Positions 4,338 through 46,190 are shown, numbered from the stretch's first letter. The stretch: DNA of 64,000 bases from Naegleria gruberi (GCA_000004985.1 GG738853.1); one strand, 5' to 3'. Notes: generated by a model from the letters alone, not told the origin. Made by a program: numbers and translations.

Positions 4338-4397
4338 ACCAAATAAAAACCGGTTTTGGTTTTGTGAATAGACTAAAAATTGGTGTTAAAAAAGGTG

Positions 4398-4468
4398 TAG
4401 GAAGACAGGGAATCGAACCCTGATCTTAGGAACCACAATCCCATGTTCTACCACTGAACTATCTCCCT
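4398..4468 (-). tRNA. tRNA-His (anticodon GUG)
   Basis: The reverse complement folds as a cloverleaf: acceptor AGGGAGA/TCTTCCT, D arm GTTC-AGTGGTA-GAAC, anticodon stem TGGGA/TCCTA, loop TTGTGGT (anticodon GTG), T arm CAGGG-TTCGATT-CCCTG, discriminator A73. There is no encoded G-1, consistent with post-transcriptional addition in eukaryotes. Confidence 0.85.
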
Positions 4469-23501: not shown

Positions 23502-26500
23502 TTATAAGAACACAACATCATCTACAGCAACTGCCAATGTCATGGTCTTCTTGAATTGATCTTCCTCAGCAAATTTAAGAGGGAATAAACAAAGATAACC
23601 ATTCACCTTTTTAAGGAGCTTTCGTTTTTCTACTTCTGTCTTTGCTAGAGCAGATGCTGCTGGATCAGTGACAGTTTGAGCTTCATTGGGTGTGGCTGCT
23701 TCACTGTTATTGACCTGGCTCACTACATCAGTGGTGTTAACTGCACTATTGCAAATGTCATGAATTTTCTTTGATAATTTGAGAACTGCTCTCGAAGGGC
23801 TCAAAATCATGTGATGTTCATGATCATCCTCAAAAGATTGCTGTTGTGGTTGTCCTGCAGAAAGTGGAGAAGCAACGTCATCTAAGAATTGACTCTTTGA
23901 AACAACCATTACCTTATCATCCTTTGCAATTTCATTACTTGTAGGAGTTTTATCCAATACTGTATCGAAAATTGCTGTTTTTGATCTAGCTGCTACGTAT
24001 TCTTCAATTGTCTTGTATCTGTCAGTTATTATATCAGTAAATACAGTATCATAAATTTCTGTATTCTTCTTGGCGAGTGTCATTAAAATATTATGTGTTT
24101 CATTATGGATTGGATCTTCAATTTGACTTCTTTTTCTTTCATGTTCTTCCAATTCCAATTCCAACTTGGTCTTTGTTCCTGATAAATTTTGAGAACGATC
24201 AAAGTGGAAAATCTTTGCCATATTGGTTCCCATCAAACGACCAGCTGTAGTTGTTGGAGGAGGAGGAACCAAATGATTAATCTGGTCAGGGGTGGTATCC
24301 ATGGAAGCTCTCAAATCCTCTTCAGATTCCATTGAGCTGATTTCTTGAATGTGTTTCTCTAATAGTTTTTGTTCCTTCTTCTTTGGGAACAGTCCCAAAT
24401 GTTCCTTCCACAATCTGAGTCTGAGAGAGTGAGCAAATTTACCAGCTCTGTATGGTCTTCCATTCATCTTGGAAGTGGTAAATGACTTGTCAGAAATCAC
24501 AACAGCAATTTCACTATCTCTATTTCCTAACATGGATCTGTCATTGATATTTGCACTTCCAATAATTGTATGTCTATCGTCGACAATCATAACCTTACTG
24601 TGAACATAGACATGCTCAGTAACTGCTCTCTTTCCAGTTGGAATCTTATCAACAAATGAGCTTTCAGTCTTTTTACGTTTCTTCTTTTTCTTCTTTTTAT
24701 CTTCATCAGAGGTATATTCATCAGAGGAAATGTCATAGTTTGGCTTTCTCCACTTGTCATCGAATATTTTATCATCACCTGAATCATCATCATCATCTAC
24801 TGAAGTAGCTGCTTGATAATATTTCATGAGGTCATTATTATTCATAAATCCATAATTTCTCAAACAAAAGAAGACAATATACTGTTCAATGAGTTCCTCA
24901 GTTGCCTGTGGATACTCCTGTTTGATGTAATTGAAGAGAGAAGTGGAAGATCTGTTAATGGTCTTGTACTGGAATTTCATTAATTGTTGAACAGATGCAA
25001 TAGCAACATCTCCCTCAGGATGTGAAGGTACAACAATGTAAACTCTGAATACCTCTCCTCTTCTCATCTTTTCAACAACCTTTCTGCCTATGAATAGTGG
25101 AATGGCATTCTTGACAGGACTTCCAGCAGTGCCTCCTATGAAGAATTGATTCTCAATGTAAATGTAGTGTTGAGCTTCCTCAATCAAGTGTAAATAGGAT
25201 AGATAAATCGATTGTTCTGTATCATTTCCTCCACTCCATCTAGAAATGGATCTGACAACTTGGGCGTTACATACGAATCCTTCATCATCAGGACAGGAAA
25301 TTTCCTCGACATATTTACTTTCTTCCTTTGAGCTCTTCTTTTCTTCCCTTTTCTTTTCTTCTCTCTTCTTTTCTTTCATAAATTCCTTCATAATCTTTTC
25401 TTCCTTTTCCTTTTCTCTTTCAACGTCCTTGTGTCGTTCTCTTTCAGCTCCTCTTCTAATGAGTTGATTTGGATTGTGTTTCTCGAACCAACTCTTGGTT
25501 CTTGCTCTTACACCCTCCATTCTGCTTTCGAACTGAGAGGTTCTTGGAGAACCGACCACATTCTTATCCAAGTGAGGAGCATTACTGGAAGATACCTGCA
25601 CACCGTCCTGATTAGTAACATTCTCATCACGAATCATCAGTGGTGAGCTGGTATTGGCATTTCCAGAACTACCTGGTGCCTTGTTCATTAAGGTGGCAGT
25701 ATCTTCTGTCTGAATACTTGGCGGAGTATTGTACTGCTGAGTGAAGAATTGTTTGAGACGTCTAGGAGTATTTTGAATGTTAGAAATATTATTGTACAGA
25801 TTAGTAGGCATGCCTGCAAATCTTCTCTTTTTGATCTTTTCCTTTCTAGCAAGAGATGCATTCTGGAGTTTGTAATACTCAAAGAGAGGATTCTTCTTGA
25901 CAGTTTTCAATTGGAGAGCTGTTGAAGGTGTTGCCTTTGTGTGCTGATTCCATCTTTCAATGAAATTAAGTGCAACATCTCTTGCCAACAATCCACTCAC
26001 CATTGAGTGAACATCATGCCAAGGTTCTCTTGGAATGAACTCTCTATCGAAGGTATCTTTAAAGTGAGCTAGTTTGTCTTCAAATCTAGTCGATGGTACA
26101 AGATTAGGATTCATATAGTCACCTCCAGGGAATTTGAGGGCAGTGTGATTGTCATCAGTTAGTGAATGATGGTGATCGTCCCATCTTCCATAAGCCAAAT
26201 CCAATCCTCCAATGAATGCCACCGATTGATCAACCACAACAATCTTTTGATGATGTGTAAAATTGATAGGGTATCTCTTTGGATGGCTGCAGACGTAAAT
26301 ATTTCGAGGGAAGAGACTTCTCAAATACTTTTTGGTTTGTCTCGTGTCAAGATTCAAACCAGCCACTGAAGTCTCCTTCCACAAAATAATGTAAATCTTT
26401 ACACCTTGAGCTGCCTTATTTTTAATCAGAATATCCAAACGAGATTCAGCAACTCTAGGAGCATCGCCTCTAATGAGATACATGAGAGGACTGAGGAGCC

Positions 26501-29429
26501 AATCAGAGATGAAAATTTCTTCCTTTGCTCTGTCCATGGCAATGGCAATATCTCTGAATGCATCTTTTCCGTCGACGTACCATTTGATTTTGACATTGTC
26601 TCTCTCTGGTGCAAAGGAGTGGAATCTGTTATTGAGCTCAGTTGCCTGAGTAATTTGCATGAAGAGCGTAAAAAGCCATGCAACTTTCTGTTCATTTTCA
26701 TCAGCCATAAACATGAATTTCTTAGCTACGAAATTACTCGAAACTGAAACAAATGCTGTATTGCTTGGAGAGCCTACGTTTGGTTGGGAAGCTGATTGTA
26801 AGGTTAGGAAGGAGAAGTAAGGAGTAGTTGAGAAGGAAAATGTTGGTTTGCCACCATTCAAGTTTGGTGAAGAGCTCTGTTGGGTTGAAGCCGCAGTTGT
26901 GACACTTGTTGGCATGCTCGTGGAGGGAGAGGCAGGGCTTTGTGGATTGAGGGAGTCCTGGAACATTTCATCACCATCGCCTGAATGTCGTGAATTCATA
27001 ATGGATCGTTTCTTTCGTTCATTATTTCCTCCATTCGTGTGAACTGCATAGGACGGAGTGGTGGGAGGTGTGATGAGCTCTGCTTGTTTTTCATTGATTA
27101 CTTTCACACAAGTTCTCAAATCAATAGTTTCTATACATTTGGAATGAATGTCGGAATTTTCTCCTGTCATTGTTGATGGATCAACATCGTAGAGGAACAT
27201 CATGGAGCCCTTAATTTCACAAAAGTAGGTTTGCTGAGAGAACATATTCTTCAACTTGCCACTAATTTCATAGGCATCTTTGGATTTGGAAAGGAATTCA
27301 TGAACAGGTTTCATAATTGGAATGAAGAAGGTTTCGAAAACTCCCAAACCATTCAGAAAGACATCGTCGAATATTTGGCTGTTATCGAAAAATTCTCCCC
27401 TCGTCAATGTTAAACTGGAAGCCGATTTGAGATTCAAGAGACTTGAATTCTTTCTCTGGTTATATGAAAAATCAAAGAATTGATCGACAAGTGTTTCGAA
27501 TAATTTGAATTTCTCTGTTGTGGTCAAACCATCCAATTTGATAATTTCCACATGCTCTGAAGATAGAGCAACTGCTGAGGTGAGCAGTGAACTGCTCAAT
27601 GCTTCATTATTGTCATCTTCCTCTACAGATTTCTTTCCTTTGGTTTTCTCAGAATTCACAGGTGACATTCCTCCATCAGAATATGTATCCAGATCAGATA
27701 TATTGTTTGTACTTCGTGGAGAGAAGAGCATTTTCCTAGCAGAGGCTAACATGCCTTTAGTTCTTTTCAGTGTTAACAAGTTCAACCTGTCCATAGCAAT
27801 CAAAAAGGTCAATAGATCTTCTCGTGACAAACACTCGTCTCCATCCAAATCGAGCATTGTAAAAACAAGTGAGGATCTTTCTCTCAAAAGTGCTTCTCTT
27901 TTCAATTGCTCATGCTCTTCAATATCAGAATCGTTATCTGAAAAGACAGTACTCATTGATAATCTACTCATCTTTTGTGCATAAACTTGGCCATCACGGA
28001 TTGAAATCGATGCAGCAGCAAGTGACAAGATGAATCTCTGGAACGTCAACACGAAAGAATCTGCCGATAGAATGAACTGATGATGATGGTGATAGTGATT
28101 ATGCTCATTTGCCAAATGTCCATCAGTGACTGCTCTATAAACAGCATCAAAGACAAATTTTTCCACCAATTCCAAATCCATATCCTCAATATTAGAAAGA
28201 GTCATTGAGGCAGAATTGTTTGTTAATGAGAGAGGTGGTACAGTTGCAGGAATGAAGGTTGTTTGTGGAGGAGAGGCATAAGAAGCATTATTTGGGGAAG
28301 TTGAAAGGAGTGGTGGAGAAGTCTTCTTATCTAAACTTGATTGGAGGAATGGTACACCTGTTTGTTGTGATGTTGCCTGAACATTACTAGTCGATGGTGT
28401 TGCCTGATAATGGGAATGCAATGAATTTGATTTTGTTCTCGTCTTGTTCACAACCTTTCCATGTTGGAAAAGCAATTGATGGCATTCTCCCTGTGCCAAG
28501 TACAGCTGATGAATATCATAATATGAAACAGAGGAGGCCAACAATGCCTGTCTCAAGATAGTTTTTCCAGGAGTTGCACCATTAATACTGGCCATACTAG
28601 ATGAATTTGACATGGTCGATGAGACGGAATCTCTCTTTTGACCATTCTTCCACTGTTCCTGTGTATTTCCTCTCGGTGTTTGCATTGTTTGATGAGAATG
28701 AGATTGTTGAAAACACAAGTTGCAAAAACTGAGAAAAATTCCCTTAAATAACTTGAATTCGTCCAATGTAAAACAAGATTTGTTCTGTAAATCTCTCTCC
28801 ATTCTAAACTTGGTCCTATTCACAGCTTGCATCACATTACCTCCAGAACCAGATCTTGATTGACCTGGATTTGCTGATGTTGGCAATTTCAATTCCTCCT
28901 TTGAAGATGAAGATGAGGAAAATCCCAAAGTTTTGTTTCTTGGAGTATTCTTTGAATTTGTACGTGGAGTGGTAGCTGAGAGTGATTTCTCATTATTATT
29001 CGTCATGGTCAAGACAATTTCCATTGGAGGAACTGTTTCATGGCCACCTCCATTTCCTGTACTCAAATATGATGGTTCTCTACGATGACCCACTTTACCA
29101 GCACCAGTTGACCGAGGAGTATTCGCCGTATTAGGTGTAGTTGTAGAATTTGGTGTAGTATTAACATTTCCTGTTGTTGATGTTCCATTGTTATTGCTAG
29201 TTCTCGCAGTGAGTGTTCCATTCTTTGCTTGTTGTTTTAATGAATCTAATAAATGTTTGGGAAGATAGACATCTGCCTCCTCATTATGAACGACCTCATG
29301 ATAGAGATGATGATTGGGAGGTAATTGTTGTTGTGAATTATTGGAAAGTGAAAGATCGATTGGTTGGTGTGATTTGATATTGCTATTGCTGATGGAAGGA
29401 TCGGAATGGTGGGAGTGTTTGTTTCCCAT
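23502..29429 (-). CDS. phospholipase D (two HKD motifs) with N-terminal MGNKHS, EF-hand-like and PH-like regions
   Basis: Single 1975-aa ORF. HKD motif 1 is HHQKIVVVDQSVAFIGGLDLAYGRWDD; HKD motif 2 is HSKVMIVDDRHTIIGSANINDRSMLGNRDSE. An EF-hand-like loop is LDLDGDECLSREDL. The N-terminus MGNKHSH fits an N-myristoylation consensus. Long Q/S/T/K/E low-complexity insertions are present. Confidence 0.9.
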   Translation of the reverse strand: MGNKHSHHSDPSISNSNIKSHQPIDLSLSNNSQQQLPPNHHLYHEVVHNEEADVYLPKHLLDSLKQQAKNGTLTARTSNNNGTSTTGNVNTTPNSTTTPNTANTPRSTGAGKVGHRREPSYLSTGNGGGHETVPPMEIVLTMTNNNEKSLSATTPRTNSKNTPRNKTLGFSSSSSSKEELKLPTSANPGQSRSGSGGNVMQAVNRTKFRMERDLQNKSCFTLDEFKLFKGIFLSFCNLCFQQSHSHQTMQTPRGNTQEQWKNGQKRDSVSSTMSNSSSMASINGATPGKTILRQALLASSVSYYDIHQLYLAQGECHQLLFQHGKVVNKTRTKSNSLHSHYQATPSTSNVQATSQQTGVPFLQSSLDKKTSPPLLSTSPNNASYASPPQTTFIPATVPPLSLTNNSASMTLSNIEDMDLELVEKFVFDAVYRAVTDGHLANEHNHYHHHHQFILSADSFVLTFQRFILSLAAASISIRDGQVYAQKMSRLSMSTVFSDNDSDIEEHEQLKREALLRERSSLVFTMLDLDGDECLSREDLLTFLIAMDRLNLLTLKRTKGMLASARKMLFSPRSTNNISDLDTYSDGGMSPVNSEKTKGKKSVEEDDNNEALSSSLLTSAVALSSEHVEIIKLDGLTTTEKFKLFETLVDQFFDFSYNQRKNSSLLNLKSASSLTLTRGEFFDNSQIFDDVFLNGLGVFETFFIPIMKPVHEFLSKSKDAYEISGKLKNMFSQQTYFCEIKGSMMFLYDVDPSTMTGENSDIHSKCIETIDLRTCVKVINEKQAELITPPTTPSYAVHTNGGNNERKKRSIMNSRHSGDGDEMFQDSLNPQSPASPSTSMPTSVTTAASTQQSSSPNLNGGKPTFSFSTTPYFSFLTLQSASQPNVGSPSNTAFVSVSSNFVAKKFMFMADENEQKVAWLFTLFMQITQATELNNRFHSFAPERDNVKIKWYVDGKDAFRDIAIAMDRAKEEIFISDWLLSPLMYLIRGDAPRVAESRLDILIKNKAAQGVKIYIILWKETSVAGLNLDTRQTKKYLRSLFPRNIYVCSHPKRYPINFTHHQKIVVVDQSVAFIGGLDLAYGRWDDHHHSLTDDNHTALKFPGGDYMNPNLVPSTRFEDKLAHFKDTFDREFIPREPWHDVHSMVSGLLARDVALNFIERWNQHTKATPSTALQLKTVKKNPLFEYYKLQNASLARKEKIKKRRFAGMPTNLYNNISNIQNTPRRLKQFFTQQYNTPPSIQTEDTATLMNKAPGSSGNANTSSPLMIRDENVTNQDGVQVSSSNAPHLDKNVVGSPRTSQFESRMEGVRARTKSWFEKHNPNQLIRRGAERERHKDVEREKEKEEKIMKEFMKEKKREEKKREEKKSSKEESKYVEEISCPDDEGFVCNAQVVRSISRWSGGNDTEQSIYLSYLHLIEEAQHYIYIENQFFIGGTAGSPVKNAIPLFIGRKVVEKMRRGEVFRVYIVVPSHPEGDVAIASVQQLMKFQYKTINRSSTSLFNYIKQEYPQATEELIEQYIVFFCLRNYGFMNNNDLMKYYQAATSVDDDDDSGDDKIFDDKWRKPNYDISSDEYTSDEDKKKKKKKRKKTESSFVDKIPTGKRAVTEHVYVHSKVMIVDDRHTIIGSANINDRSMLGNRDSEIAVVISDKSFTTSKMNGRPYRAGKFAHSLRLRLWKEHLGLFPKKKEQKLLEKHIQEISSMESEEDLRASMDTTPDQINHLVPPPPTTTAGRLMGTNMAKIFHFDRSQNLSGTKTKLELELEEHERKRSQIEDPIHNETHNILMTLAKKNTEIYDTVFTDIITDRYKTIEEYVAARSKTAIFDTVLDKTPTSNEIAKDDKVMVVSKSQFLDDVASPLSAGQPQQQSFEDDHEHHMILSPSRAVLKLSKKIHDICNSAVNTTDVVSQVNNSEAATPNEAQTVTDPAASALAKTEVEKRKLLKKVNGYLCLFPLKFAEEDQFKKTMTLAVAVDDVVFL

Positions 29430-33036: not shown

Positions 33037-33110
33037 TGCCTCCCTTGGGAATCGAACCCAAGACCTCTGTCTTACTAGGACAGCGCTACTGCCAACTGAG
33101 CTAGGAAGGC
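33037..33110 (-). tRNA. tRNA-Thr (anticodon AGU)
   Basis: The reverse complement reads GCCTTCC-TA-GCTCAGTTGGCAGTAGC-G-CTGTC-CTAGTAA-GACAG-AGGTC-TTGGG-TTCGATT-CCCAA-GGGAGGC-A. The acceptor stem is fully paired and the anticodon loop is CTAGTAA (AGT). Confidence 0.85.
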
Positions 33111-34825: not shown

Positions 34826-36683
34826 ATGCAAGAAGGAATAACAACGTCGTATGGCACATCAGCTGATGATGGCAATTATTATTATCATCAGAGTCATCCC
34901 GAAGGAGAAACATCATCTCCTTCAATATTATTAAATTCTAATACTATTAATAATAATAACAATGATGATGATATTACTAGTAGAGAAGAAGAACATGGAA
35001 TGGAACAAGGTAATATTAAAATAGTCAAACGATATGAAGACATGTCGAGCGACATGATTAAATCCTTCAAAAGAAGGGAGAGAAAATTACATTTTGAAGA
35101 TAAAAGTGATAAGACTTCAACGTTGGCAAGGCTTTGGTCTGGAGTGTTTAAAACTAGTAGAAATAACAATGAAGGAAATCAAGAAGAAGAAAGGGATTTA
35201 CTTCATGATGATGATAACGAAAATTCCGAGTTGAACTTTTCAATTAATGAAGAACATTTTGCTTTAAAGAAGGGTAATGGAAATAAGAGAAGGAAAAAGA
35301 GGGATTTTCCATTATTTACGAGAAAGACTAATTTATTCTTGACAGTTTTCAATTTAATTAATGATATCTTGTCACCTGGTACCATGTCTATGAGTCAAAT
35401 GATTTCTCAGAGTGGTGTTTGGATGTCAATTGTTAGTGTAACGTTTTTTGGAATGATTACTTCATTTACTTTGATTTTGTTATATGAAATGTCGAGAGGA
35501 CATTTAAAAACGAGTTTGGCTAGTCTTGCAGAGAAGGCATATGGTAAACCTGGTACAATTTTGACATGGTATGTTGTTTTGCATGTTAATGTACTCAAGT
35601 TTAATTTTCACATAATTTCTGAAACTTTTGAATAATATTCATGAAAATGCATTTTAAACATGCATGAAATATAGTATATTCATATTTATTTTCAATTTTG
35701 GAGGAGCTTGTGGCATGTACATTATGTTTGGAGAAGTTGCTGGAGATTTATTATTATATTTATTTGATGATGTTCCTAATATTTTCATTAGTAGAACTGC
35801 AATCTTGTTGTACTTGACTGCATTTTTGATTCCTATTGCACTAATGAAAAACCTTTCGAGTTTTGCCTTTACATCATTTATTTCGGTTAGTTCAGTCTTG
35901 ATTATTACTGGACTTATTATGTTTGAGTCAATTTTCGGATATAGATCCATTCCTAGTCCATCAGATGCTTACAATTTTGTCCATCCGCAATTTTTATCAT
36001 CCATTGCTGGTTTATCCTTTATTTATGTTTCTCATGATATTGTCTTTCACTGTTTTGGTGAAATGAGAAGACCAACAAGGACTAGATTTTACACAGTCGT
36101 TTTCACAGTTGTCTTTTTAACTATGGCCACCATTTTTGCAATTGGCTTGTCAGGGTATTTCCTCTTTTATGATAAGAATTTAACAGAGGGTAACATTTTG
36201 GATTTATTACCACGTTCATATGGATTGGCAATTGTTGCTCGTTTACTCTTGATTTTGGACATTGCACTCTCAGTACCTTTTGCATTATTCATGCCTCGTG
36301 ATGGTGTCAAGACCATTGTTGAAAGCATCTTTCCAAAGTTTTCAGTTTGGATTAATATGACCAAGTGGAGAAGAGAAACTTACCATGTGATTGTCACATT
36401 GAGTATTGTTGCAATTGCTTGTGGTGTTGGATTGGGAGTTACTGACCTTGGAATGTTCTCAGATCTTTGTGGTGGTGTTTCTGCAACATCATTGGCCTAC
36501 ATTATTCCACCTGCCTTATTCTTGAAATTGGACCCTTGGAAAGGATGCTGCAGTAATAGGACAGGTCTATTCAGAGCAGTTGTTAAGGTTATATGTATTA
36601 TTGTCCTTACAATTGGTGTTACATGTTTTGCTAGTAGTATTTTCAGTGTTATTTATCACACATTCATTCTTCATGATGCTTAA
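34826..36683 (+). CDS. amino acid transporter (Aa_trans / SLC36-SLC38-AVT family)
   Basis: join(34826..35568,35675..36683), with a 106-nt intron (TG|GTATGT .. ATATAG|T, phase 2). Motifs are FNLINDILSPGTMSMSQMISQSGVWMSIVSVTFFGMITSFTLILLYE, ..GKPGTILT|CIFIFIFNFGGACGMYIMFGEVAGD.. and about 11 TM segments. An N-terminal hydrophilic region of about 160 aa is N/D/E-rich. Confidence 0.8.
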
Positions 36684-36794: not shown

Positions 36795-38075
36795 TTAAAT
36801 AATTTCCAATTTGGCGTGTTTAGCACAAATAGAAACACCAAAAGTGTACTCAAAGTTTGGTAAATTATCAAATGCTACTTTAGGATCATCACCATTAATT
36901 GAGAATAAAAGTGAATTATTCTGTACAATAACTTCCACTACATCTCCAACTTTCATAGGAGATAAAAATGGCGTTCCTTTGCCCGAACATGACTTTTGCC
37001 CATTTAGAAATATCAAACCATAACCATTTTCACTTAAATAAGTGTCAAGTCGTGATGAAGAATTCACAATTCCAAATATGATGCACCATGTATTGGAGCC
37101 TTGAACTAATTGGTGGACTTTGAATTTGATATTGCGAATTTTCCTGTCTTCTACGTTAAATATTTCAGGCGAAATTTTGTAAATATTCCAATTATCTTTG
37201 AAAACCTCCAATATTTTCTCTCCATTTGCAAAACAATGCTTGACAGTTGGAAATGGTAAAATCTTTACGATTTTTCCAATCTTGCCAATTTTGCTAGAAA
37301 TTTCATTAGTTTCAAATTGTTCAATATTGAACTTGTCAATATTTTCCAAGCTAATAAAATTTCCAACTTGTGTTGATATCAATTCGAAACTATCCATAGT
37401 TTGTTTAAATTTGTTAATTTTCCTCTCCATCAATGTATATCCATTCATTGACAAAATGCTTGTTAATTCTCTTTTCAAATCTTCGACTATTTCATGATGA
37501 TTTCGAATAGATGTTACAATATTGCATTGGTTATCCACCAATTCATCTAGATCAACCAATAATTGTTGTTCTCTTTTCTTCAAATCATTCATTAATTCGT
37601 CAAGTTTCGAATGGATTTGCTTTTTCAACTCTTCACCTCTAGCTCTAACTTTTGTAACGCATTCAGTAAGATTATTCTCATCCAATTGATGTTTCTGACT
37701 CCATTCTTCAGACTTAATGATAAACTTTTGCAATTCATCAACTGTTTCCTTTTTTACAGTTGCTTCAATTTCTGAAATTAACGAAACTTGATGTGCTGAA
37801 TGTAAACTAACAGCACATGATGAGCAAATCAACATTTTACAATTACTGCAAAAACAATTGATCGGAATAAAATGATCTTTACACAATGGAGCTGTGTTTA
37901 CAGGATTGTAACTTTCGTCTAGTTTAGAATTATTTGGAATAACAACATGGTTGTTTCTTTCATGTTTTTTAGCATGATAGGTGCAAAGGGCCAACGAGCA
38001 AGAAGAACAACAATGTGTGGCTGGTAATTCTTCTTCCTCTTCCAAACAGCTTGCACAGCTCGCTTGTACTCTCAT
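36795..38075 (-). CDS. B-box zinc finger / coiled-coil / SPRY (B30.2)-like protein, TRIM-like without RING
   Basis: Single 426-aa ORF. It has two Cys/His B-box-like clusters (CASCLEEEEELPATHCCSSCSLALCTYHAKKH, and CKDHFIPINCFCSNCKMLICSSCAVSLHSAH). A central coiled coil (ELKKQIHSKLDELMNDLKKREQQLLVDLDELV) follows. The C-terminus is SPRY-like (WCIIFGIVNSS..GYGLIFLNGQK..VGDVVEVIV..FSINGDDPKVAF). Confidence 0.55.
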   Translation of the reverse strand: MRVQASCASCLEEEEELPATHCCSSCSLALCTYHAKKHERNNHVVIPNNSKLDESYNPVNTAPLCKDHFIPINCFCSNCKMLICSSCAVSLHSAHQVSLISEIEATVKKETVDELQKFIIKSEEWSQKHQLDENNLTECVTKVRARGEELKKQIHSKLDELMNDLKKREQQLLVDLDELVDNQCNIVTSIRNHHEIVEDLKRELTSILSMNGYTLMERKINKFKQTMDSFELISTQVGNFISLENIDKFNIEQFETNEISSKIGKIGKIVKILPFPTVKHCFANGEKILEVFKDNWNIYKISPEIFNVEDRKIRNIKFKVHQLVQGSNTWCIIFGIVNSSSRLDTYLSENGYGLIFLNGQKSCSGKGTPFLSPMKVGDVVEVIVQNNSLLFSINGDDPKVAFDNLPNFEYTFGVSICAKHAKLEII

Positions 38076-38238: not shown

Positions 38239-39063
38239 ATGATGCAAACCATTACTGCTAGAACACGTAAGATTGTTTGTCTTTTGAAAAACTATGAAGC
38301 ACACGCAAAGGAAATGCAAGGAGCTGTTCCTTCATCACCAGAATTCTTTTTAAAGGTTCGTTATTTTCAAATTCCGATCATGGAATTAATTTAAATAATA
38401 TTAAATTATTTGATGATGATCGGAATTATTGAAAATATCTTGATCGGAATATAATGATGATGATGAAAATAATGATGATGATAATAATGCTGAATATATT
38501 AATAGCCAACCACTTCAATTGTTGTTCATGAAAAGGATGGCAAAAATCCAATTCACATTTCATCCATTTCTCATCTCACTCAAGATGTTCATCATGAAGT
38601 TGAGTTGGGAGTTGTGATTGGAAAGAGAGGAAAGAACATTTCACAACAAGATGCATTTTCACATGTGAAGGGTTTCTTTGTTGCTTTGGATTTGACAGCT
38701 AGAGATTTACAAAATAAGGCCAAGAAGAATGGAAAGCCATGGACTGTTGCAAAGGGTTTTGATGATTTTTGTCCAATTGGTTCAGAAATGATTGAATCGA
38801 CAAATCTTGTACAAGATGGAAAGTTGAAGAATTTGACAATTTTCATTAAGATTAATGGACAAGTTAAACAACGTGGATTTACTAATGATATGATTTATAA
38901 TGTACCTCAAGCTATTGAGGCAATCAGTCAAGTAATGACTTTGGAAGAGGATGATCTTATTTTGACAGGTACTCCAGAAGGTGTTTCTCAAATTAATTCT
39001 GGAGATGTTTTGGAATTTGGTGTGGAAGATGTTACTCCAACTTATCAATTCAATGTTGTTTAA
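38239..39063 (+). CDS. fumarylacetoacetate hydrolase domain protein (FAHD1-like acylpyruvase / oxaloacetate decarboxylase)
   Basis: join(38239..38355,38506..39063), with a 150-nt intron (AAG|GTTCGT .. TTAATAG|CCA, phase 0). The intron contains (GATGAT)n. Exon 1 encodes MMQTITARTRKIVCLLKNYEAHAKEMQGAVPSSPEFFLK. Exon 2 encodes ..HHEVELGVVIGKRGKNIS..ALDLTARDLQ..GKPWTVAKGFDDFCPIG.., all typical of FAHD1. Confidence 0.8.
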
Positions 39064-39144: not shown

Positions 39145-42100
39145 TTAGTTTAATAATGGAGCTTGTTCCAAGTCTTGTTTCTTTTTAAATAGTTTCTTGA
39201 TATTATTCCAATTAGAGTAGTAAGAAACTTTTCCCTTGATTAAATTCGTCAAAGACTCCTCATCTTGTTGATAAATAATTATCAATGAAACTATTCGAAA
39301 GAAGATACCAAATACTGGAATCAAAACAATGCATAAATTCAAATCTTCAATTTTGTAATCGAATAAATCCAACGAAGATTGAATATCGAAAATGTTCATA
39401 TAGTTTCTAATTTCCATAATGTAGAGAGCTTCTTGTGCGTATCGAATATATGAGACGAAACTTAACCAATACAATGGAGGAACCTCCTGTCTCATCTGAG
39501 CAAGTGTAGGTCTAGAACCACTCACTAATTGCAACACTAACACAAAAATGGCACCTGCCAATTGAATTAATTCCAATTTGATAGTTAAACTGACAAGCAT
39601 TCCAATGCCAAATGTCGTAAAATGCAAAAGGAATAGAATTAAATAATACTCCCAGAATGAGGCAGTTGGAGAGTACAATGAAAAGAATATTGAAAGAAAG
39701 ACAATCGGTCCAAATACCATATTTGGAATCTGTTCTAAATTCTTTGCAATAAAATAGGCAAAAACGGACAAACCACTTGAACGTTCCTTCTTGAAAATTA
39801 CTTGAACTGATTTGGTTCCAAAGGTTCCAAGTGAAGACATGATTCCACATAATCCTAAAACCAAAGGAACAGTACTTGCAACATTGATTATTGGATTGTT
39901 TAAAGGATAGCCACAGATTTTCCTAATTGGGGATGGACACGTATTGATTATATCAACTGGCAATGGACCAATATAAGCATCCTTCAAATAAATCAATCCT
40001 AAACTCAATCCACCAATGTAAACCAACAAGCAATCAATGAAAAACGAAGCAAAATCACGAATTTTCAAAGTGAAAGATCTTTTCACACACATGTAAAAGT
40101 GAATGAGCGAATTTTGATTTCTGGCCTTTTCCTCCTGTTGTAACATCTTAATTGATGGTGTGTTGACTCGATCTTCAATGGTCACAAATTTTTCCCAAAT
40201 CTCAAACATTTCCTTACATGACAAAACTTCCACCGGAATTCCAGTTCTCTCAATTTGTGATTGATAAGTGAATTCTGGATCGTAAATTGCATCTAATAGG
40301 AAATCACTTGGATTAACATATGGAGGAGGAATCAGAGAAAGTTGTTTCTCGAAATAGTTCAATACTTGATTGGATTCGCCCATGTAAACGATTCGTCCAC
40401 CATTTCCCAAAAGAACAACATCGTCAAACATTTGAAAGATTTCGAATCTGGGTTGATGCAACACAGCTACTACTGTAATTCCACTCTCTGCAATGTCTTT
40501 CATGGATTTGGCAACTTCAAAACTACTGTATGCATCTAGTGAGCTAGTAGGTTCGTCCACTAAGTAGAATAAAAATTAGAAGAAACCATGAAAACTAAAC
40601 TTACAGAATAAAATGTAAGGACAAGTAACCAATTCCATTGCAATGCTAACTCTCTTACGTTGTCCACCTGATATACCTCTCTTTGATTCATCACCAATAA
40701 GAGAATGTCTTATATGATCCAAATCCAGATTTTGAATTACTCCGTTTACTATCTGATCTATTACCTTACTTGGAAAATTCAATCTAGTACGAGCGGAAAA
40801 ATAAATACACTCCTCCACAGTCAATTCTCTATACATACAATCTTCCTGTGTGACAAATGCTGTAATATTTTTAAATTCCTTAATTGATGACTTGACGCCA
40901 TTCACAAAAATGTCACCACTCACATTTGCATAACTGGCATTTCCTAAAATTGCTGATAAAAGAGTTGTTTTTCCACTTCCACTTGGTCCCATAATACAAG
41001 TTAACTTTCCAGGTCGAAACTTTCCATTCAAATTATGCAAAATTCGTTTGTTATTCGAAACTAAATCAAGTGACAATTTGTCAAATGAAATTTCCGCCTT
41101 TACATCTTTGTAAAGTCCTTTCATAATTTGTGAAACGGTCAACTTGGGAACAGTTTGAACGTAGGAACTTTCTGTAATGTGCGCCAACTTTCTCTTAATA
41201 AATTCTTCCATTCTTTTTTCTTCTTGTTTCTTGATCCAAAACTTTCTGGAAATGGAATAAATGAAATAGGTCAGAATTACAAGCCCAATAATGGATAAAT
41301 CGATCAAGAATCCAATAGCATATCCATCAAAGGATTTGGTACCTTCTGGACAATTGGAAAAGAGTGGACATGCAATTGGAAGGACAGTTCCTACTGTACA
41401 GTAATGACCTTGCGGACATTTTTTCTTCTCAATCGGAGTGGAACAATAGTAACCCGCTGGACATGGAGATGGGACATAGGATCCAACATCACAATATTGT
41501 GTCAATCGGCAATCTATCTTTGTACTTGGTGATGGACAGTAAAAACCTTTTGGACATGGATTTCTATCGGTGGTTCCAGGTGGACAATATAAAGACACAG
41601 TTTCATTAGGAATGCAAATAGTTGGCTCCATAATGGATGGCTCTTCACAGTAGGTATTCTCTGGACATGCTAAAACAGATCTATTTCCCTCCACAAATCT
41701 TCCTAAATTGCAATATTCTCCAATTGAGCATTCCTTAATTTGGTTATCTTGTAAGAATAAGCCAGGAGAGATTGGAAGAGGCGGGAAATAAGGAGTGATG
41801 CAAATGGTACCGTTGATGCAAGGTTGGGGAGATTCACTTCCTGAGGAGAAACAAGTTTCTGATCCTCGTGGAGTTTTCCATCCAAGATTTGAATATGAAT
41901 TTAAATCACTTTCGTCACTGGCAATTTCACACGAAAGTGGTTTAGTCATACCATCGAATGGACATTGAAAACCTTGAGGACACAACTGTCTAGCTCCACC
42001 ATAACAGAAATACCTCTTCTCACAATATTTCATCTGATTAGGTCGAATCGTATAGAATCCATTAGGAACTTTGTCCATAACCACATCATCAAAAGATGGA

Positions 42101-44058
42101 CACGACATTCCAGTGAAACAACTTGAAGTATATTGCCCAAATTGATTCAGTGTCACTGGTGAAGGTTTCATTGATTGACATTGTTGAGCGAAAGGTTTCA
42201 GAAACAAATCGTCTGGATTCGACTCCAATTCTTTACAAATTTGGTAAAATCGATTAGTGGATTGCAATTCCCATCTTTCTCTACTAATGGTCACAAACAA
42301 GTGTTGAGAATTTGGAGTAATTTCCATAAAATCTGCATCTCCCATTAAACTAATCTTGTTAAAATACGAAAGTATCAACCCATTATTCGAACACATTTCC
42401 TGTTGTAATCCGTAAACCAAAATTTCCTTCCCCGACTTGGAAATAAATATCTGAGAAATCCAATAATTCTGCAAAACATCCTTCATGAAATATTCTCCAT
42501 ATTGGGAAATTAATTCAATAAAGCAATTTGTGTTGTTTAGATATTTTGAGCAAATTATTTCCAATTCGGGAGTTCTGATAATATTTTCACATAATTGTTG
42601 AATATCCACATCTTTTCCAAAGTCTGTATTGAAAAAGGAAGTGTAAATGTCTGGTACATTGTAAAATCGTTGTTTCATTTCTAATATGGTTTCGCCTTTC
42701 ATTAGTTTGATTTCGGTGAATGTTTCGAATGATTTGGTGCATTCTCCTGTTGAAATATCAAAGTAAAAACCATCAGCAATTTGACATGTTTCGTTTCTTC
42801 CAACTGGATTACTGGAATTTCTTTCTGAAAATCTAAAAAAATCATAATTTGCAAATTCCAACAAGTTTCGAACATGTAAACTATTTGTTCCATTCGAAAG
42901 TTGAATGGCAATAATCAAGTTTAGTCCCTGGGCTTGATGAGCAATGACCTTAAAGCATGAAGATTTATAAAAATCGACTCTTCTAATTTCTTCAGCTGCC
43001 AACGAAGCACTCAAAATAGTTTCATCCTTATTGGTGAGATAGAAAGTGGACGAATCTATTTCATTCATATCCAAATACATATTCCTCTTTTGTAATTCAA
43101 TGATTTTCACTTGATCATTGGATGAAATCATCAACAACAATCTTTCGTATTGAAAATAGCTCGTTGTCAAGGCATTTCTAAATCCACCAACTTGATTTTT
43201 AAAACTAAACTGCAAACTATTCAAACTCTTGATGGTAATGTGAAATTCCAATTCATGAGAACAATCTTTCAATTTGTAAAATTTCATTACATTGGTGTCA
43301 TTTGTCAATTTCTCAACAATATTCAAATAAATTGAATCCTCAAATTCGAATATACGAATCATATTCGAAGGATCTGTCAACTCAAATGTTGCACAAGTTT
43401 CAATAGATGAAATATCAAAAGTTTTTGCCTTAAATAATGAAAGACTATTTCCATACGAAATGGTCGCCACAAAATAATCCGTTCCATTTGTAAATGCTGT
43501 CAAAGTTCTGACATTACTGCCGTCACTTGTCTTTCCTACATGAACAGTTTCTCCTGTGTTGAAATTAATTAAAATGATATGTCCAGAAATCAACCCCAAA
43601 ACAATAAATCTCCTTGTTTCATTCTCTTCATCTTGAAATTCAATTGTTGTAATCTTGGAAATGTATTTACATTTATCACGAGGTGAAATTAGTTTGGAAT
43701 AGTCCAGTTTCGAACTGCTATGTGGATGGATCAGTGTGCCATTCATGTAACTGTATACATTCGGATCAGATGTTGAACATATTGCTCCATCTTCAACATT
43801 CAACAAGAAATCTTCATCACTAAACAGAAATGGAACACTCGCAAAAGGATTCGAATATTTACACCACGAAGGTTGTATATCAGAGTTAATTAATTCCTCA
43901 TGTGAACACAACTCTTGTCTAAATGCAGCACCACCACTCTTGTAACACAAATTGCAATTGACCCATTTGATAATTGAAAACAATGAAATTGTGATGAAAA
44001 ATAGAAATAAAAAGCGATGTTTGTTTGAGTTGGAAACACGTGTCGACTTGTGTTTCAT
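39145..44058 (-). CDS. ABC transporter, G-family half transporter (NBD-TMD) preceded by signal peptide, about 880-aa Cys-rich extracellular domain and an extra TM helix
   Basis: complement(join(39145..40559,40605..44058)), with a 45-nt intron splitting ..ELVTCPYILF|LDEPTSSLD. The NBD has Walker A GPSGSGKTTLL, signature SGGQRKRVSIAMEL and Walker B ILFLDEPTS. The C-terminal TMD has 6 helices. Upstream are a signal peptide (MKHKSTRVSNSNKHRFLFLFFITISLFSIIKWVNC; first ATG 44058, the track ORF extends to 44139) and a large domain. Its proximal part has repeated CP.G.YC ephrin-receptor/TNFR-like Cys repeats (CPPGTTDRNPCPKGFYCPSPSTKIDC..CPAGYYCSTPIEKKKCPQGHYCTVG). A TM helix (YAIGFLIDLSIIGLVILTYFIYSI) follows. 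Confidence 0.8.
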
Positions 44059-44315
44059 TCTGTTTTTTTCTCTTAATTGCAAATAGAAAGTTTTGGGAAA
44101 CAAATGAAACAACATAATGTAAATTCCATGATCTTGCAATTATAATTATGAAATTGGAATGTAATTTGAATATAGGATCTAAATAGGAGTTAAAAATGCT
44201 GACAATGACATTTTGTAGTCATGGGGTGGCCATTGAGCAAACCTTTATCTTTGGAGAATCTAAAACTATTAGTTTTTGGATATGGATAACAAAAATTACT
44301 AAAAACATTAAAAGA

Positions 44316-44399
44316 TCCGATGAGACGGAATCGAACCGCCGACCACAGGATAACAGTTACAACTACAGTCCCATGCTCTACCAGCTGAGCTATCATCGG
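44316..44399 (-). tRNA. tRNA-Tyr (anticodon GUA) with 11-nt intron
   Basis: The reverse complement reads CCGATGA-TA-GCTC-AGCTGGTA-GAGC-A-TGGGA-CTGTAG[ttgtaactgtt]A-TCCTG-TGGTC-GGCGG-TTCGATT-CCGTC-TCATCGG-A. The acceptor stem is perfect. The intron lies 3-prime of position 37, as is canonical for eukaryotic tRNA-Tyr. Confidence 0.8.

Positions 44400-44575: not shown

Positions 44576-46190
<1,615 letters not shown>

What the first reader, a model, noticed from the sequence alone, without database searches (positions are those of the whole stretch)
39145..44058. Receptor-like ABCG half-transporter: signal peptide plus about 880-aa Cys-rich ectodomain plus extra TM helix fused upstream of NBD-TMD
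Canonical ABCG half-transporters begin with a cytosolic NBD. Here the NBD (Walker A GPSGSGKTTLL, signature SGGQRKRVSIA) is preceded by a cleavable-looking signal peptide and a very large extracellular region. The proximal 200 aa of that region carry tandem CP.G.YC ephrin-receptor/TNFR-like cysteine repeats. One added transmembrane helix gives a predicted 7-TM topology. This architecture suggests ligand- or substrate-capture coupled to an ABC exporter. It is far from the textbook ABCG layout.
Basis: seen in the sequence. Interest (0 to 1): 0.55.

Follow-up and report, generated by a model that had tools for sequence, protein, structure and literature searches.

The report
ABCG transporter with large ectodomain
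This is a real single gene of a Naegleria-like amoeba that joins a large outward-facing beta-propeller and cysteine-rich stalk to an ordinary ABCG pump, and it belongs to a little-studied subfamily found across eukaryotes, so it is unusual against the textbook but not unique.

Summary
On the minus strand, ATG 44058 to stop 39145 with one 45-nt GT..AG intron (40604..40560) encodes a 1622-aa protein. Its parts in order are a signal peptide, an ectodomain of about 880 aa, one extra TM helix (915-933), a K/R-rich linker, an intact ABCG NBD, and a six-helix ABC2 TMD. The ectodomain, TM0, Walker A and the signature motif all lie in one uninterrupted ORF, so the fusion does not depend on the intron.

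AlphaFold models built from homologue alignments show a seven-bladed beta-propeller, a helical linker and an ephrin-receptor/TNFR-like cysteine-rich stalk. No Pfam model matches any of this.

The architecture is not unique. Naegleria gruberi has a collinear 1666-aa "predicted protein". Collinear relatives occur in Willaertia, N. fowleri, Anaeramoeba, Rigifila, Mastigella, Telonema and a sponge. Partial or short-ectodomain relatives occur in Acrasis, Andalucia and a choanoflagellate. Two are named after Arabidopsis ABCG28/WBC30. In a rough tree their NBDs form one clade, and they share an extra two-cysteine insertion in extracellular loop 1.

The function is inferred: an ATP-driven exporter dimer whose ectodomain acts as an exoplasmic binding or acceptor platform. 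This is a new member of a known but uncharacterised kind, of moderate interest.

The parts
39145..44058 (-). Whole gene: 2 exons (44058..40605 and 40559..39145), 1622-aa ABCG half-transporter with N-terminal ectodomain
   Evidence: collinear 64%-identical (57% by BLASTP over 1600 columns) N. gruberi protein P0337
43954..44058 (-). Signal peptide (residues 1-35: basic n-region, FLFLFFITISLFSII core, VNC before the likely cut)
   Evidence: clear N-terminal signal-like sequences in relatives P0337, P0339, P0338, P0131, P0115, P0135. Cleavage inferred, not predicted with SignalP
42274..43953 (-). N-terminal cap plus seven-bladed beta-propeller (residues 36-595), with a helical insertion of about 65 residues between blades 6 and 7
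42139..42273 (-). Helical linker (residues 596-640) carrying the family-conserved R..WE..S..R...IC..L...PD..FL motif
41317..42138 (-). Cysteine-rich stalk (residues 641-914; 26 Cys; CPxGxYC repeats), ephrin-receptor-like/TNFR-like
   Evidence: (30 invariant columns, mostly Cys)
41260..41316 (-). Extra transmembrane helix TM0 (residues 915-933, IGFLIDLSIIGLVILTYFI)
   Evidence: It is part of one long helix (residues 913-961) in the model. Positive-inside: 1 K/R before it, 9 after
41059..41259 (-). Cytosolic K/R-rich juxtamembrane linker (residues 934-1000), variable in length among relatives
40264..41058 (-). Nucleotide-binding domain (residues 1001-1250; Walker A 1024, Q-loop 1068, signature 1129, Walker B 1149, H-loop 1184), interrupted by the intron
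   Evidence: Pfam ABC_tran 7.9e-26; PDB best hits Pdr5, Cdr1, ABCG2, ABCG1 and AtABCG25; motifs
40560..40604 (-). 45-nt phase-1 intron GTAAGT...CTTAG inside the Walker B codons, with an in-frame stop if it is not spliced
   Evidence: the intron-less N. lovaniensis sequence gives the same peptide
39271..40098 (-). ABC2-type transmembrane domain, six helices (residues 1306-1581)
   Evidence: Pfam ABC2_membrane_7 1.3e-37 and ABC2_membrane 1.1e-13; hydropathy
39892..39984 (-). Subfamily-specific insertion in extracellular loop 1 (residues 1344-1374, ...NTCPSPIRKICGYPLNNP...) with two conserved Cys
   Evidence: the roughly 20-residue insertion is in 12 of 13 ectodomain-bearing ABCGs aligned (both Cys in 9 of these) and in the window protein, and in 0 of 12 conventional ABCGs

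Best explanation
The locus is one functional gene for an ABCG half-transporter of a distinct, ancient eukaryotic subfamily.

Shown:
- A signal peptide is followed by a seven-bladed beta-propeller, a helical linker and a disulfide-rich ephrin-receptor-like stalk.
- A single extra helix (TM0) then crosses the membrane, and a basic linker leads to a catalytically intact NBD and a six-helix ABC2 TMD.

Inferred from the signal peptide, Cys and sequon content and the positive-inside rule: the ectodomain is translocated to the exoplasmic or luminal side and the NBD stays in the cytosol.

Inferred from what is established for ABCG2, ABCG1 and ABCG5/G8:
- The protein dimerises. ATP binding and hydrolysis at the NBD dimer drive a hydrophobic, lipid-like or amine substrate from the cytosolic side or inner leaflet to the exoplasmic side.
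- The two TM0-tethered ectodomains sit over the extracellular exit. The subfamily-specific two-cysteine EL1 insertion may give them a docking surface.
- The ectodomains act as an exoplasmic binding platform that accepts the exported substrate or holds a partner at the exit. This is analogous in logic, not in ancestry, to the extracellular domains of ABCA1.

My confidence in the architecture and subfamily membership is about 0.95. My confidence in the acceptor/platform mechanism is about 0.3.
For: Gene model and motifs:
- ORF, intron and catalytic motifs.
- ABCG identity.

Fusion conserved:
- 41 of the 150 best ectodomain homologues carry the ABCG part downstream and collinear.
- Named members include N. 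gruberi (full length, 64%/57% identity), Willaertia, N. fowleri, Acrasis, Anaeramoeba ('abc transporter g family member 28'), Andalucia ('white-brown complex homolog protein 30'), Rigifila, Mastigella, Telonema, Sycon and Didymoeca.
- Three of these come from transcriptome assemblies.

One clade: in a neighbour-joining tree of NBDs, 30 of 35 ectodomain-bearing NBDs, including the window's, form a pure clade. The top 28 NBD scores all belong to ectodomain-bearing proteins.

Folds.

Outside topology.

Coupling hint: the EL1 insertion is restricted to the subfamily.
Against: - There is no expression, localisation or transport data for this or any protist member.
- The substrate is unknown.
- Nothing shows that the ectodomain touches the TMD or the substrate.
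- The propeller is generic, with no lectin-like or lipid-binding signature.
- Some relatives have dead NBD motifs yet keep the ectodomain. This fits a role that does not need their own ATPase.
- The only studied putative relative, AtABCG28, sits on secretory vesicles rather than the cell surface (PMC9195045, PMC9409143). In that case 'outside' would mean luminal.
- The tree has no bootstrap support, and 5 ectodomain-bearing sequences fall outside the clade.
Confidence: 0.6

Rival explanations
1. Receptor-like regulation. The ectodomain binds an external ligand, and TM0 plus the juxtamembrane linker pass this on to the NBD. Transport is then switched by the ligand, or the ATPase cycle signals inward.
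For: - Propeller plus Cys-rich stalk plus a single TM is a typical receptor ectodomain layout.
- TM0 is directly followed by a conserved-position basic linker into the NBD.
- Relatives with degenerate NBDs keep the ectodomain.
Against: - The TM0-NBD linker is variable in length and sequence among relatives. That is poor for allosteric transmission.
- No signalling domain is present.
- No ligand is known.
Confidence: 0.2
2. Sorting or adhesion module. The ectodomain works independently of transport, like the propeller plus 10CC module of sortilin/Vps10. It would target the pump to a compartment such as secretory vesicles, phagosomes or the contractile vacuole, or anchor it to a matrix or prey surface.
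For: - AtABCG28, after which two relatives are named, is vesicular (PMC9195045).
- Foldseek similarity of the stalk to ELAPOR1, an endosome/lysosome protein, is weak (E 0.2-0.4).
- The same Cys repeats build giant protist surface proteins (P0110 and P0111, with 34-49 repeats).
Against: - The ectodomain core has stayed collinear with the ABCG part across distant eukaryotic lineages and has co-varied with an EL1 insertion. That argues for a joint function.
- No sequence relation to Vps10 was found.
Confidence: 0.15
3. Annotation or assembly artefact: two neighbouring genes (a secreted Cys-rich protein and a normal ABCG) read as one, or a pseudogene.
For: The N. lovaniensis homologue is annotated as two genes, and its DNA lacks the TM0 region.
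Against: - In this window one uninterrupted 1187-codon ORF covers the ectodomain, TM0, Walker A and the signature motif.
- All catalytic motifs are intact.
- At least 30 independent 50%-identity clusters have the same order, including transcriptome contigs.
Confidence: 0.02

Closest known systems
Naegleria gruberi 'predicted protein' P0337 (1666 aa) and the heterolobosean homologues (Willaertia magna KAL9658626, N. lovaniensis XP_044548688, N. fowleri FDP41_012002/CAG4708565, Acrasis kona KAL0482318)
   Same: P0337 is collinear over the full length (window residues 45-1606 against 44-1641): signal peptide, propeller, stalk, TM0, NBD and TMD.
   Different: Identity to P0337 is 57-64%, so the window comes from a different Naegleria-like species or strain. 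None of these proteins is characterised. The N. lovaniensis model is split and lacks TM0. The N. fowleri protein is a 31-33% paralogue.
Arabidopsis ABCG28, ABCG24 and WBC30 (long half-size ABCGs of about 1100 aa)
   Same: - Relatives of the window protein were named after them by their annotators: Anaeramoeba 'g family member 28' and Andalucia 'white-brown complex homolog protein 30'.
- The maize orthologues are 1040-1112 aa, against about 600-750 aa for ordinary half-size ABCGs (table in PMC9409143).
- From my own knowledge, untested here: they have a signal peptide, an N-terminal extension of about 450 aa and an extra TM.
   Different: - No plant sequence could be obtained with the tools, so homology of the ectodomains was not tested.
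- The plant extension is too short to hold the propeller.
- AtABCG28 is linked to polyamine/ROS delivery in pollen tubes and sits on secretory vesicles (PMC9409143, PMC9195045).
Canonical ABCG half-transporters (human ABCG2, ABCG1, ABCG5/G8; AtABCG25, AtABCG16)
   Same: NBD-then-TMD order, the ABC2 membrane fold, and all ATPase motifs. These proteins and the PDR-type Pdr5 and Cdr1 are the best PDB sequence matches, at E 1e-40 to 1e-65.
   Different: They start with a cytosolic NBD and have no signal peptide, ectodomain or TM0. They also lack the two-cysteine EL1 insertion.
ABCA1/ABCA4 extracellular domains
   Same: A large exoplasmic domain sits on top of an ABC exporter and is thought to receive lipid (PMC9381790). 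This is an analogy of logic only.
   Different: The ABCA ECDs are loops between TM helices of a type V full transporter and have a different fold. There is no sequence or fold relation.
Ephrin_rec_like / GCC2_GCC3 repeats (PF07699), as in MEGF6/11-like proteins, ELAPOR1 and Chlamydomonas mastigoneme Mst1
   Same: The family profile aligns repeatedly over PF07699-annotated stretches. The stalk model hits Mst1 at E about 1e-6, and ELAPOR1 and 4-1BB at E 0.2-0.5.
   Different: No member reaches the Pfam threshold. There is no PDB sequence match. Here the repeats form a fixed stalk of about 270 aa with 26 Cys at conserved positions, not an open-ended array.

Membership tests
ABC transporter subfamily G (half-size, reverse topology) | NBD N-terminal to the TMD on one polypeptide | tested here: met
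   ABC_tran at 1007-1157, then ABC2_membrane_7/ABC2_membrane at 1306-1581
ABC transporter subfamily G (half-size, reverse topology) | ABC2-type (type V) six-helix membrane domain | tested here: met
   PF19055 at 1.3e-37 and PF01061 at 1.1e-13; six hydrophobic segments in 1325-1580
ABC transporter subfamily G (half-size, reverse topology) | Closest characterised relatives are ABCG/PDR proteins rather than ABCA, ABCB or ABCC | tested here: met
   PDB phmmer: Pdr5 8e-65, Cdr1, ABCG2 6e-50, ABCG1, AtABCG25 and ABCG5/G8 all rank ahead of ABCB1 at 1e-34. ABCH was not separately tested because no ABCH sequences were at hand
ABC transporter subfamily G (half-size, reverse topology) | Intact Walker A, Q-loop, signature, Walker B with catalytic Glu, and H-loop | tested here: met
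   GPSGSGKT 1024, FVTQ 1068, ISGGQ 1129, ILFLDEP 1149, VLHQP 1184
Ectodomain-bearing ABCG subfamily (ABCG24/ABCG28/WBC30-like) | Signal peptide, exoplasmic Cys-rich domain and one extra TM helix preceding the NBD | tested here: met
   collinear with 41 homologues
Ectodomain-bearing ABCG subfamily (ABCG24/ABCG28/WBC30-like) | The NBD groups with other ectodomain-bearing ABCGs | tested here: met
   The neighbour-joining tree gives a pure 30/30 clade that includes the window protein. There is no bootstrap, and 5 divergent members fall outside
Ectodomain-bearing ABCG subfamily (ABCG24/ABCG28/WBC30-like) | Sequence homology of the ectodomain to the Arabidopsis ABCG24/ABCG28/WBC30 N-terminal extension | not testable with these tools
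   No plant member was returned by the three word-indexed searches, and the AlphaFold database library was unavailable. The only support is names transferred by other annotators
Ephrin_rec_like (Pfam PF07699) repeats | Match to the Pfam model at or above the gathering score | tested here: not met
   No hit even at E<=10 for the window stalk, and none at E<=0.1 in 17 family members
Ephrin_rec_like (Pfam PF07699) repeats | Profile-level and fold-level similarity to bona fide PF07699 proteins | tested here: met
   Profile A1 hits PF07699-annotated proteins at whole-protein E of about 1e-13 to 1e-45. Its aligned stretches overlap the Pfam-annotated segments. Foldseek hits Mst1 significantly, and ELAPOR1 and 4-1BB weakly
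WD40-type seven-bladed beta-propeller | Seven four-stranded blades closing a ring | tested here: met
WD40-type seven-bladed beta-propeller | WD40 sequence repeats (Pfam WD40 or related) | tested here: not met
   Only sub-threshold hits: Beta-prop_WDR36 at E 0.03 and ANAPC4_WD40 at E 0.1. It is the fold, not the sequence family

The most novel reading that the evidence does not exclude
The ectodomain-bearing ABCGs are an ancient subfamily, possibly dating to the last eukaryotic common ancestor. In them a receptor-type ectodomain (propeller plus Cys-rich stalk) is mechanically coupled, through TM0 and a dedicated EL1 insertion, to the transporter. Export would then be gated by, or handed directly to, an extracellular partner. 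This would be a ligand-coupled ABC exporter, a mode not described for ABCG proteins. The lineages with dead NBDs would be pure receptor or regulatory partners.
Probability: 0.15. Interest if true: 0.7.

Novelty: new member of a known kind. Interest (0 to 1): 0.4.

Why it matters
ABCG transporters are textbook examples of pumps that begin with a cytosolic ATPase. This subfamily adds a receptor-like ectodomain of 400-900 aa and a seventh helix.

- It is spread over Discoba, Metamonada, Amoebozoa, CRuMs, Telonemia and Opisthokonta, and by annotation also plants.
- No Pfam model covers its ectodomain and no relative has a solved structure.
- None of the nine full-text searches I ran turned up a description of the ectodomain.
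- The only member named in the literature, AtABCG28, has an unexplained role in polyamine/ROS delivery.

The anatomy worked out here gives concrete constructs for testing what the ectodomain does. That anatomy is the propeller, the fixed 26-Cys stalk, TM0 and the subfamily-specific EL1 insertion. Naegleria is a tractable free-living host and a relative of the pathogen N. fowleri, which has a paralogue. For the window itself, the finding is an orthologue of an already predicted N. gruberi protein, so it is not a discovery on its own.

Tried and rejected
- The full-length word-indexed search returned only generic ABC proteins. It missed obvious relatives later found by the exhaustive search. That tool seems to limit hits by length, so the absence of plant ABCG24/28 says nothing.
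- Pfam scans of the ectodomain in two pieces at E<=10, and of 17 relatives, gave nothing meaningful.
- PDB sequence searches with both ectodomain profiles gave no hit.
- Foldseek against AFDB50, which would have shown Arabidopsis ABCG24/28, was not available.
- The locus of the N. gruberi orthologue is not on record. Intron conservation and synteny could therefore only be checked against N. lovaniensis.
The PNAS 2019 ABCG28 paper and the Arabidopsis Book chapter are not held.
- I can recall what I believe is the AtABCG28 N-terminus with CxxGxYC motifs. I did not use it, because a remembered sequence is not evidence.
- I rejected a two-gene artefact, a pseudogene and a cytosolic ectodomain (see rivals).
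- No second copy of any part of the gene exists in the window.
- The neighbouring genes are unrelated housekeeping genes: a B-box protein, FAA hydrolase, a MAP-kinase-like kinase, amino-acid transporters and PLD.
Full report
**1. Observation**

The window is AT-rich (about 33% G+C), gene-dense and eukaryotic.

- On the minus strand an ORF of 1187 codons (40576..44139) is followed, 16 nt downstream and in another frame, by one of 471 codons (39145..40560).
- The junction reads ...ATT TTA TTC T|GTAAGT...CTTAG|TG GAC GAA CCT.
- Removing the 45-nt GT..AG intron (40604..40560, phase 1) joins the two ORFs into a 4869-nt CDS of 1622 codons. The splice rebuilds a canonical Walker B, ILFLDEPTSSLD.
- The homologous N. 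lovaniensis locus has no intron there and reads YVLFLDEPTSSLD, so the splice is right.
- The ectodomain, the extra TM helix, Walker A and the signature motif all lie in the first, uninterrupted ORF. The fusion therefore does not rest on the intron.

**2. The ABC part**

- Pfam finds ABC_tran (1007-1157) and then ABC2_membrane_7/ABC2_membrane (1306-1581).
- The best solved relatives are Pdr5, Cdr1, ABCG2, ABCG1, AtABCG25/16 and ABCG5/G8, well ahead of ABCB1.
- Walker A, Q-loop, signature, Walker B with its Glu, and the H-loop are all intact.
- This is an ABCG half-transporter that should hydrolyse ATP.

**3. Topology**

- After a basic N-terminus comes a 15-residue hydrophobic core and then V-N-C (residues 33-35). 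This has the form of a signal peptide.
- Full-length relatives have clear N-terminal signal-like sequences.
- A strong hydrophobic helix lies at 915-933, with 1 K/R in the 15 residues before it and 9 K/R in the 27 after it. Six more hydrophobic segments follow in 1325-1580.
- Residues 36-914 hold 42 Cys (4.8%) and 11 sequons. The NBD has 1.5% Cys and the TMD 1.7%.
- Together these features place the ectodomain outside (or in a lumen) and the NBD in the cytosol, giving 1+6 TM helices.
- SignalP and DeepTMHMM could not be run, so cleavage and topology are inferences.

**4. What the ectodomain is**

Pfam has nothing for it, and no PDB chain matches its profiles.

An exhaustive HMMER search with residues 36-958 found 1382 relatives, 96 of them below 1e-30. 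From these I built two alignments and two AlphaFold2 models.

*Residues 35-640 (pLDDT 76.5, pTM 0.79).*
- They form seven groups of four strands, with a helical insertion between blades 6 and 7.

*Residues 525-990 (pLDDT 80.5).*
- The model shows the last propeller blades, a helical linker, and an elongated disulfide-rich stalk of short beta-hairpins.
- It ends in one long helix that includes TM0.
- The significant Foldseek matches (E about 1e-6) are all chains of the Chlamydomonas mastigoneme filament. ELAPOR1 and 4-1BB (TNFR) appear only at E 0.2-0.5.

*The stalk's family.*
- The family profile hits many proteins annotated with PF07699 (Ephrin_rec_like) at about 1e-13 to 1e-45. It aligns over the annotated segments.
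- Thirty alignment columns, mostly Cys, are invariant across 17 distant relatives.

**5. The architecture is a family**

- Of the 150 best ectodomain hits, 41 also carry the ABCG part downstream, in the same order and collinear with the window protein. Most of the rest are short fragments or giant repeat proteins.
- The part shared by all starts near residue 530-565 and covers the last blades, the linker, the stalk and TM0. The rest of the propeller is shared with about 18 closer relatives.
- Named members are listed below.

| Organism | Group | Note |
|---|---|---|
| Naegleria gruberi | Heterolobosea | 1666 aa; 64% identity (57% by BLASTP over 1600 columns); collinear over residues 45-1606 |
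| Willaertia magna | Heterolobosea | |
| N. lovaniensis | Heterolobosea | |
| N. fowleri | Heterolobosea | a 31-33% paralogue |
| Acrasis kona | Heterolobosea | |
| Andalucia godoyi | Jakobida | named 'Putative white-brown complex homolog protein 30' |
| Anaeramoeba flamelloides | Metamonada | named 'abc transporter g family member 28' |
| Mastigella eilhardi | Amoebozoa | transcriptome assembly |
| Rigifila ramosa | CRuMs | transcriptome assembly |
| Telonema subtile | Telonemia | transcriptome assembly |
| Sycon ciliatum | sponge | |
| Didymoeca costata | choanoflagellate | short ectodomain |

- The 28 best NBD scores all belong to ectodomain-bearing proteins.
- In a neighbour-joining tree, 30 of 35 such NBDs form a pure clade with the window protein. 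The tree has no bootstrap.
- The window is thus from a Naegleria-like heterolobosean. Its protein is an orthologue of an already predicted but uncharacterised N. gruberi protein.

**6. A hint of coupling**

I aligned the TMDs of 13 ectodomain-bearing and 12 conventional ABCGs, plus the window protein.
- An insertion of about 20 residues sits in extracellular loop 1: ...C-P-x(5-6)-C-x-x-P-x-[DN]-[DN]-P....
- It is in the window protein (residues 1344-1374) and in 12 of the 13 ectodomain-bearing relatives. Both conserved Cys are present in the window protein and in 9 of those relatives.
- None of the 12 conventional ABCGs has it.
- The outside face of the TMD has therefore changed together with the acquisition of the ectodomain.

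**7. Mechanism**

Shown: the domain order, intact ATPase motifs, conservation of the fusion, and the folds.

Inferred from the biology of ABCG2, ABCG1 and ABCG5/G8: dimerisation and ATP-driven export of a hydrophobic or amphipathic substrate.

Inferred from the anatomy: two TM0-tethered ectodomains stand over the exit and act as a binding or acceptor platform. I put this at about 0.3.

Rival readings:
- A sorting or adhesion module acting independently of transport (0.15). This is encouraged by the vesicular location of AtABCG28 reported in PMC9195045 and PMC9409143.
- An artefactual fusion (0.02).

Some relatives (P0130, P0137, P0164, P0190) have lost Walker A, the signature and Walker B but keep the ectodomain and TMD. 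They are probably asymmetric partners, or the ectodomain has a role of its own.

**8. Comparison and novelty**

- The protein works like, and is, an ABCG half-transporter.
- It is a member of the ectodomain-bearing subfamily.
- Whether the Arabidopsis ABCG24/ABCG28/WBC30 extension is homologous could not be tested. No plant sequence was retrievable and AFDB was unavailable.
- The indirect evidence is the transferred names, and the 1040-1112-aa length of the maize orthologues (PMC9409143).
- None of the literature searches I ran found a description of the ectodomain.

**Verdict**

This is a new member of a known but uncharacterised kind. Interest is 0.4. It would rise if the ectodomain were shown to gate or receive transport.

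Noticed in passing
window 44316..44399 (-): A tRNA-Tyr(GTA) gene of 84 nt, long enough to carry a short intron, lies about 260 bp upstream of the ABCG start codon. tRNA-His (4397..4468, -) and tRNA-Thr (33037..33110, -) are also in the window.
   Followed up: no
L001 6001..10829 (N. lovaniensis PYSW02000022.1): The homologous locus is annotated as two genes, an 891-aa ectodomain and a 612-aa ABC part. Its DNA lacks about 150 codons equivalent to window residues 846-998 (last Cys repeats, TM0, linker), and the frame changes there. This could be a deletion or pseudogene, or an assembly collapse.
   Followed up: partly
relatives P0130, P0137, P0164, P0190 (environmental eukaryote contigs): These ectodomain-bearing ABCGs have degenerate Walker A, signature and Walker B motifs (for example VVMGREQEARLALL, GLNQVQRVF, VLFIEADLE) but keep the ectodomain and TMD. 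This suggests catalytically dead partners or a non-transport role (sequences printed).
   Followed up: no
window 39892..39984 (-), protein residues 1344-1374: A subfamily-specific insertion with two conserved Cys sits in extracellular loop 1 of the TMD. It is absent from 12 conventional ABCGs.
   Followed up: yes
proteins P0395 (Rhodosporidiobolus ruineniae, 1045 aa) and P0384 (Tetraselmis, 1288 aa): Other ABCGs also carry a signal peptide, a different Cys-rich or EGF-like ectodomain and a TM helix before the NBD. The 'ectodomain plus TM0 plus ABCG' layout may therefore have arisen, or been remodelled, more than once.
   Followed up: no
proteins P0110, P0111, P0149, P0237 (4700-6400 aa): Giant proteins match the membrane-proximal Cys repeat (window residues about 790-875) in 34-49 separate stretches each. 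The same repeat builds very large, presumably surface, proteins.
   Followed up: no
window 45119..46190 (+): A MAP-kinase-like protein kinase is split over at least two ORFs (45119..45412 and 45603..46190), implying another short intron. Other neighbours are a B-box protein (36795..38075, -), an FAA hydrolase (38605..39063, +), two amino-acid transporter ORFs (34826..36683, +) and a 1975-aa phospholipase D (23502..29429, -).
   Followed up: no
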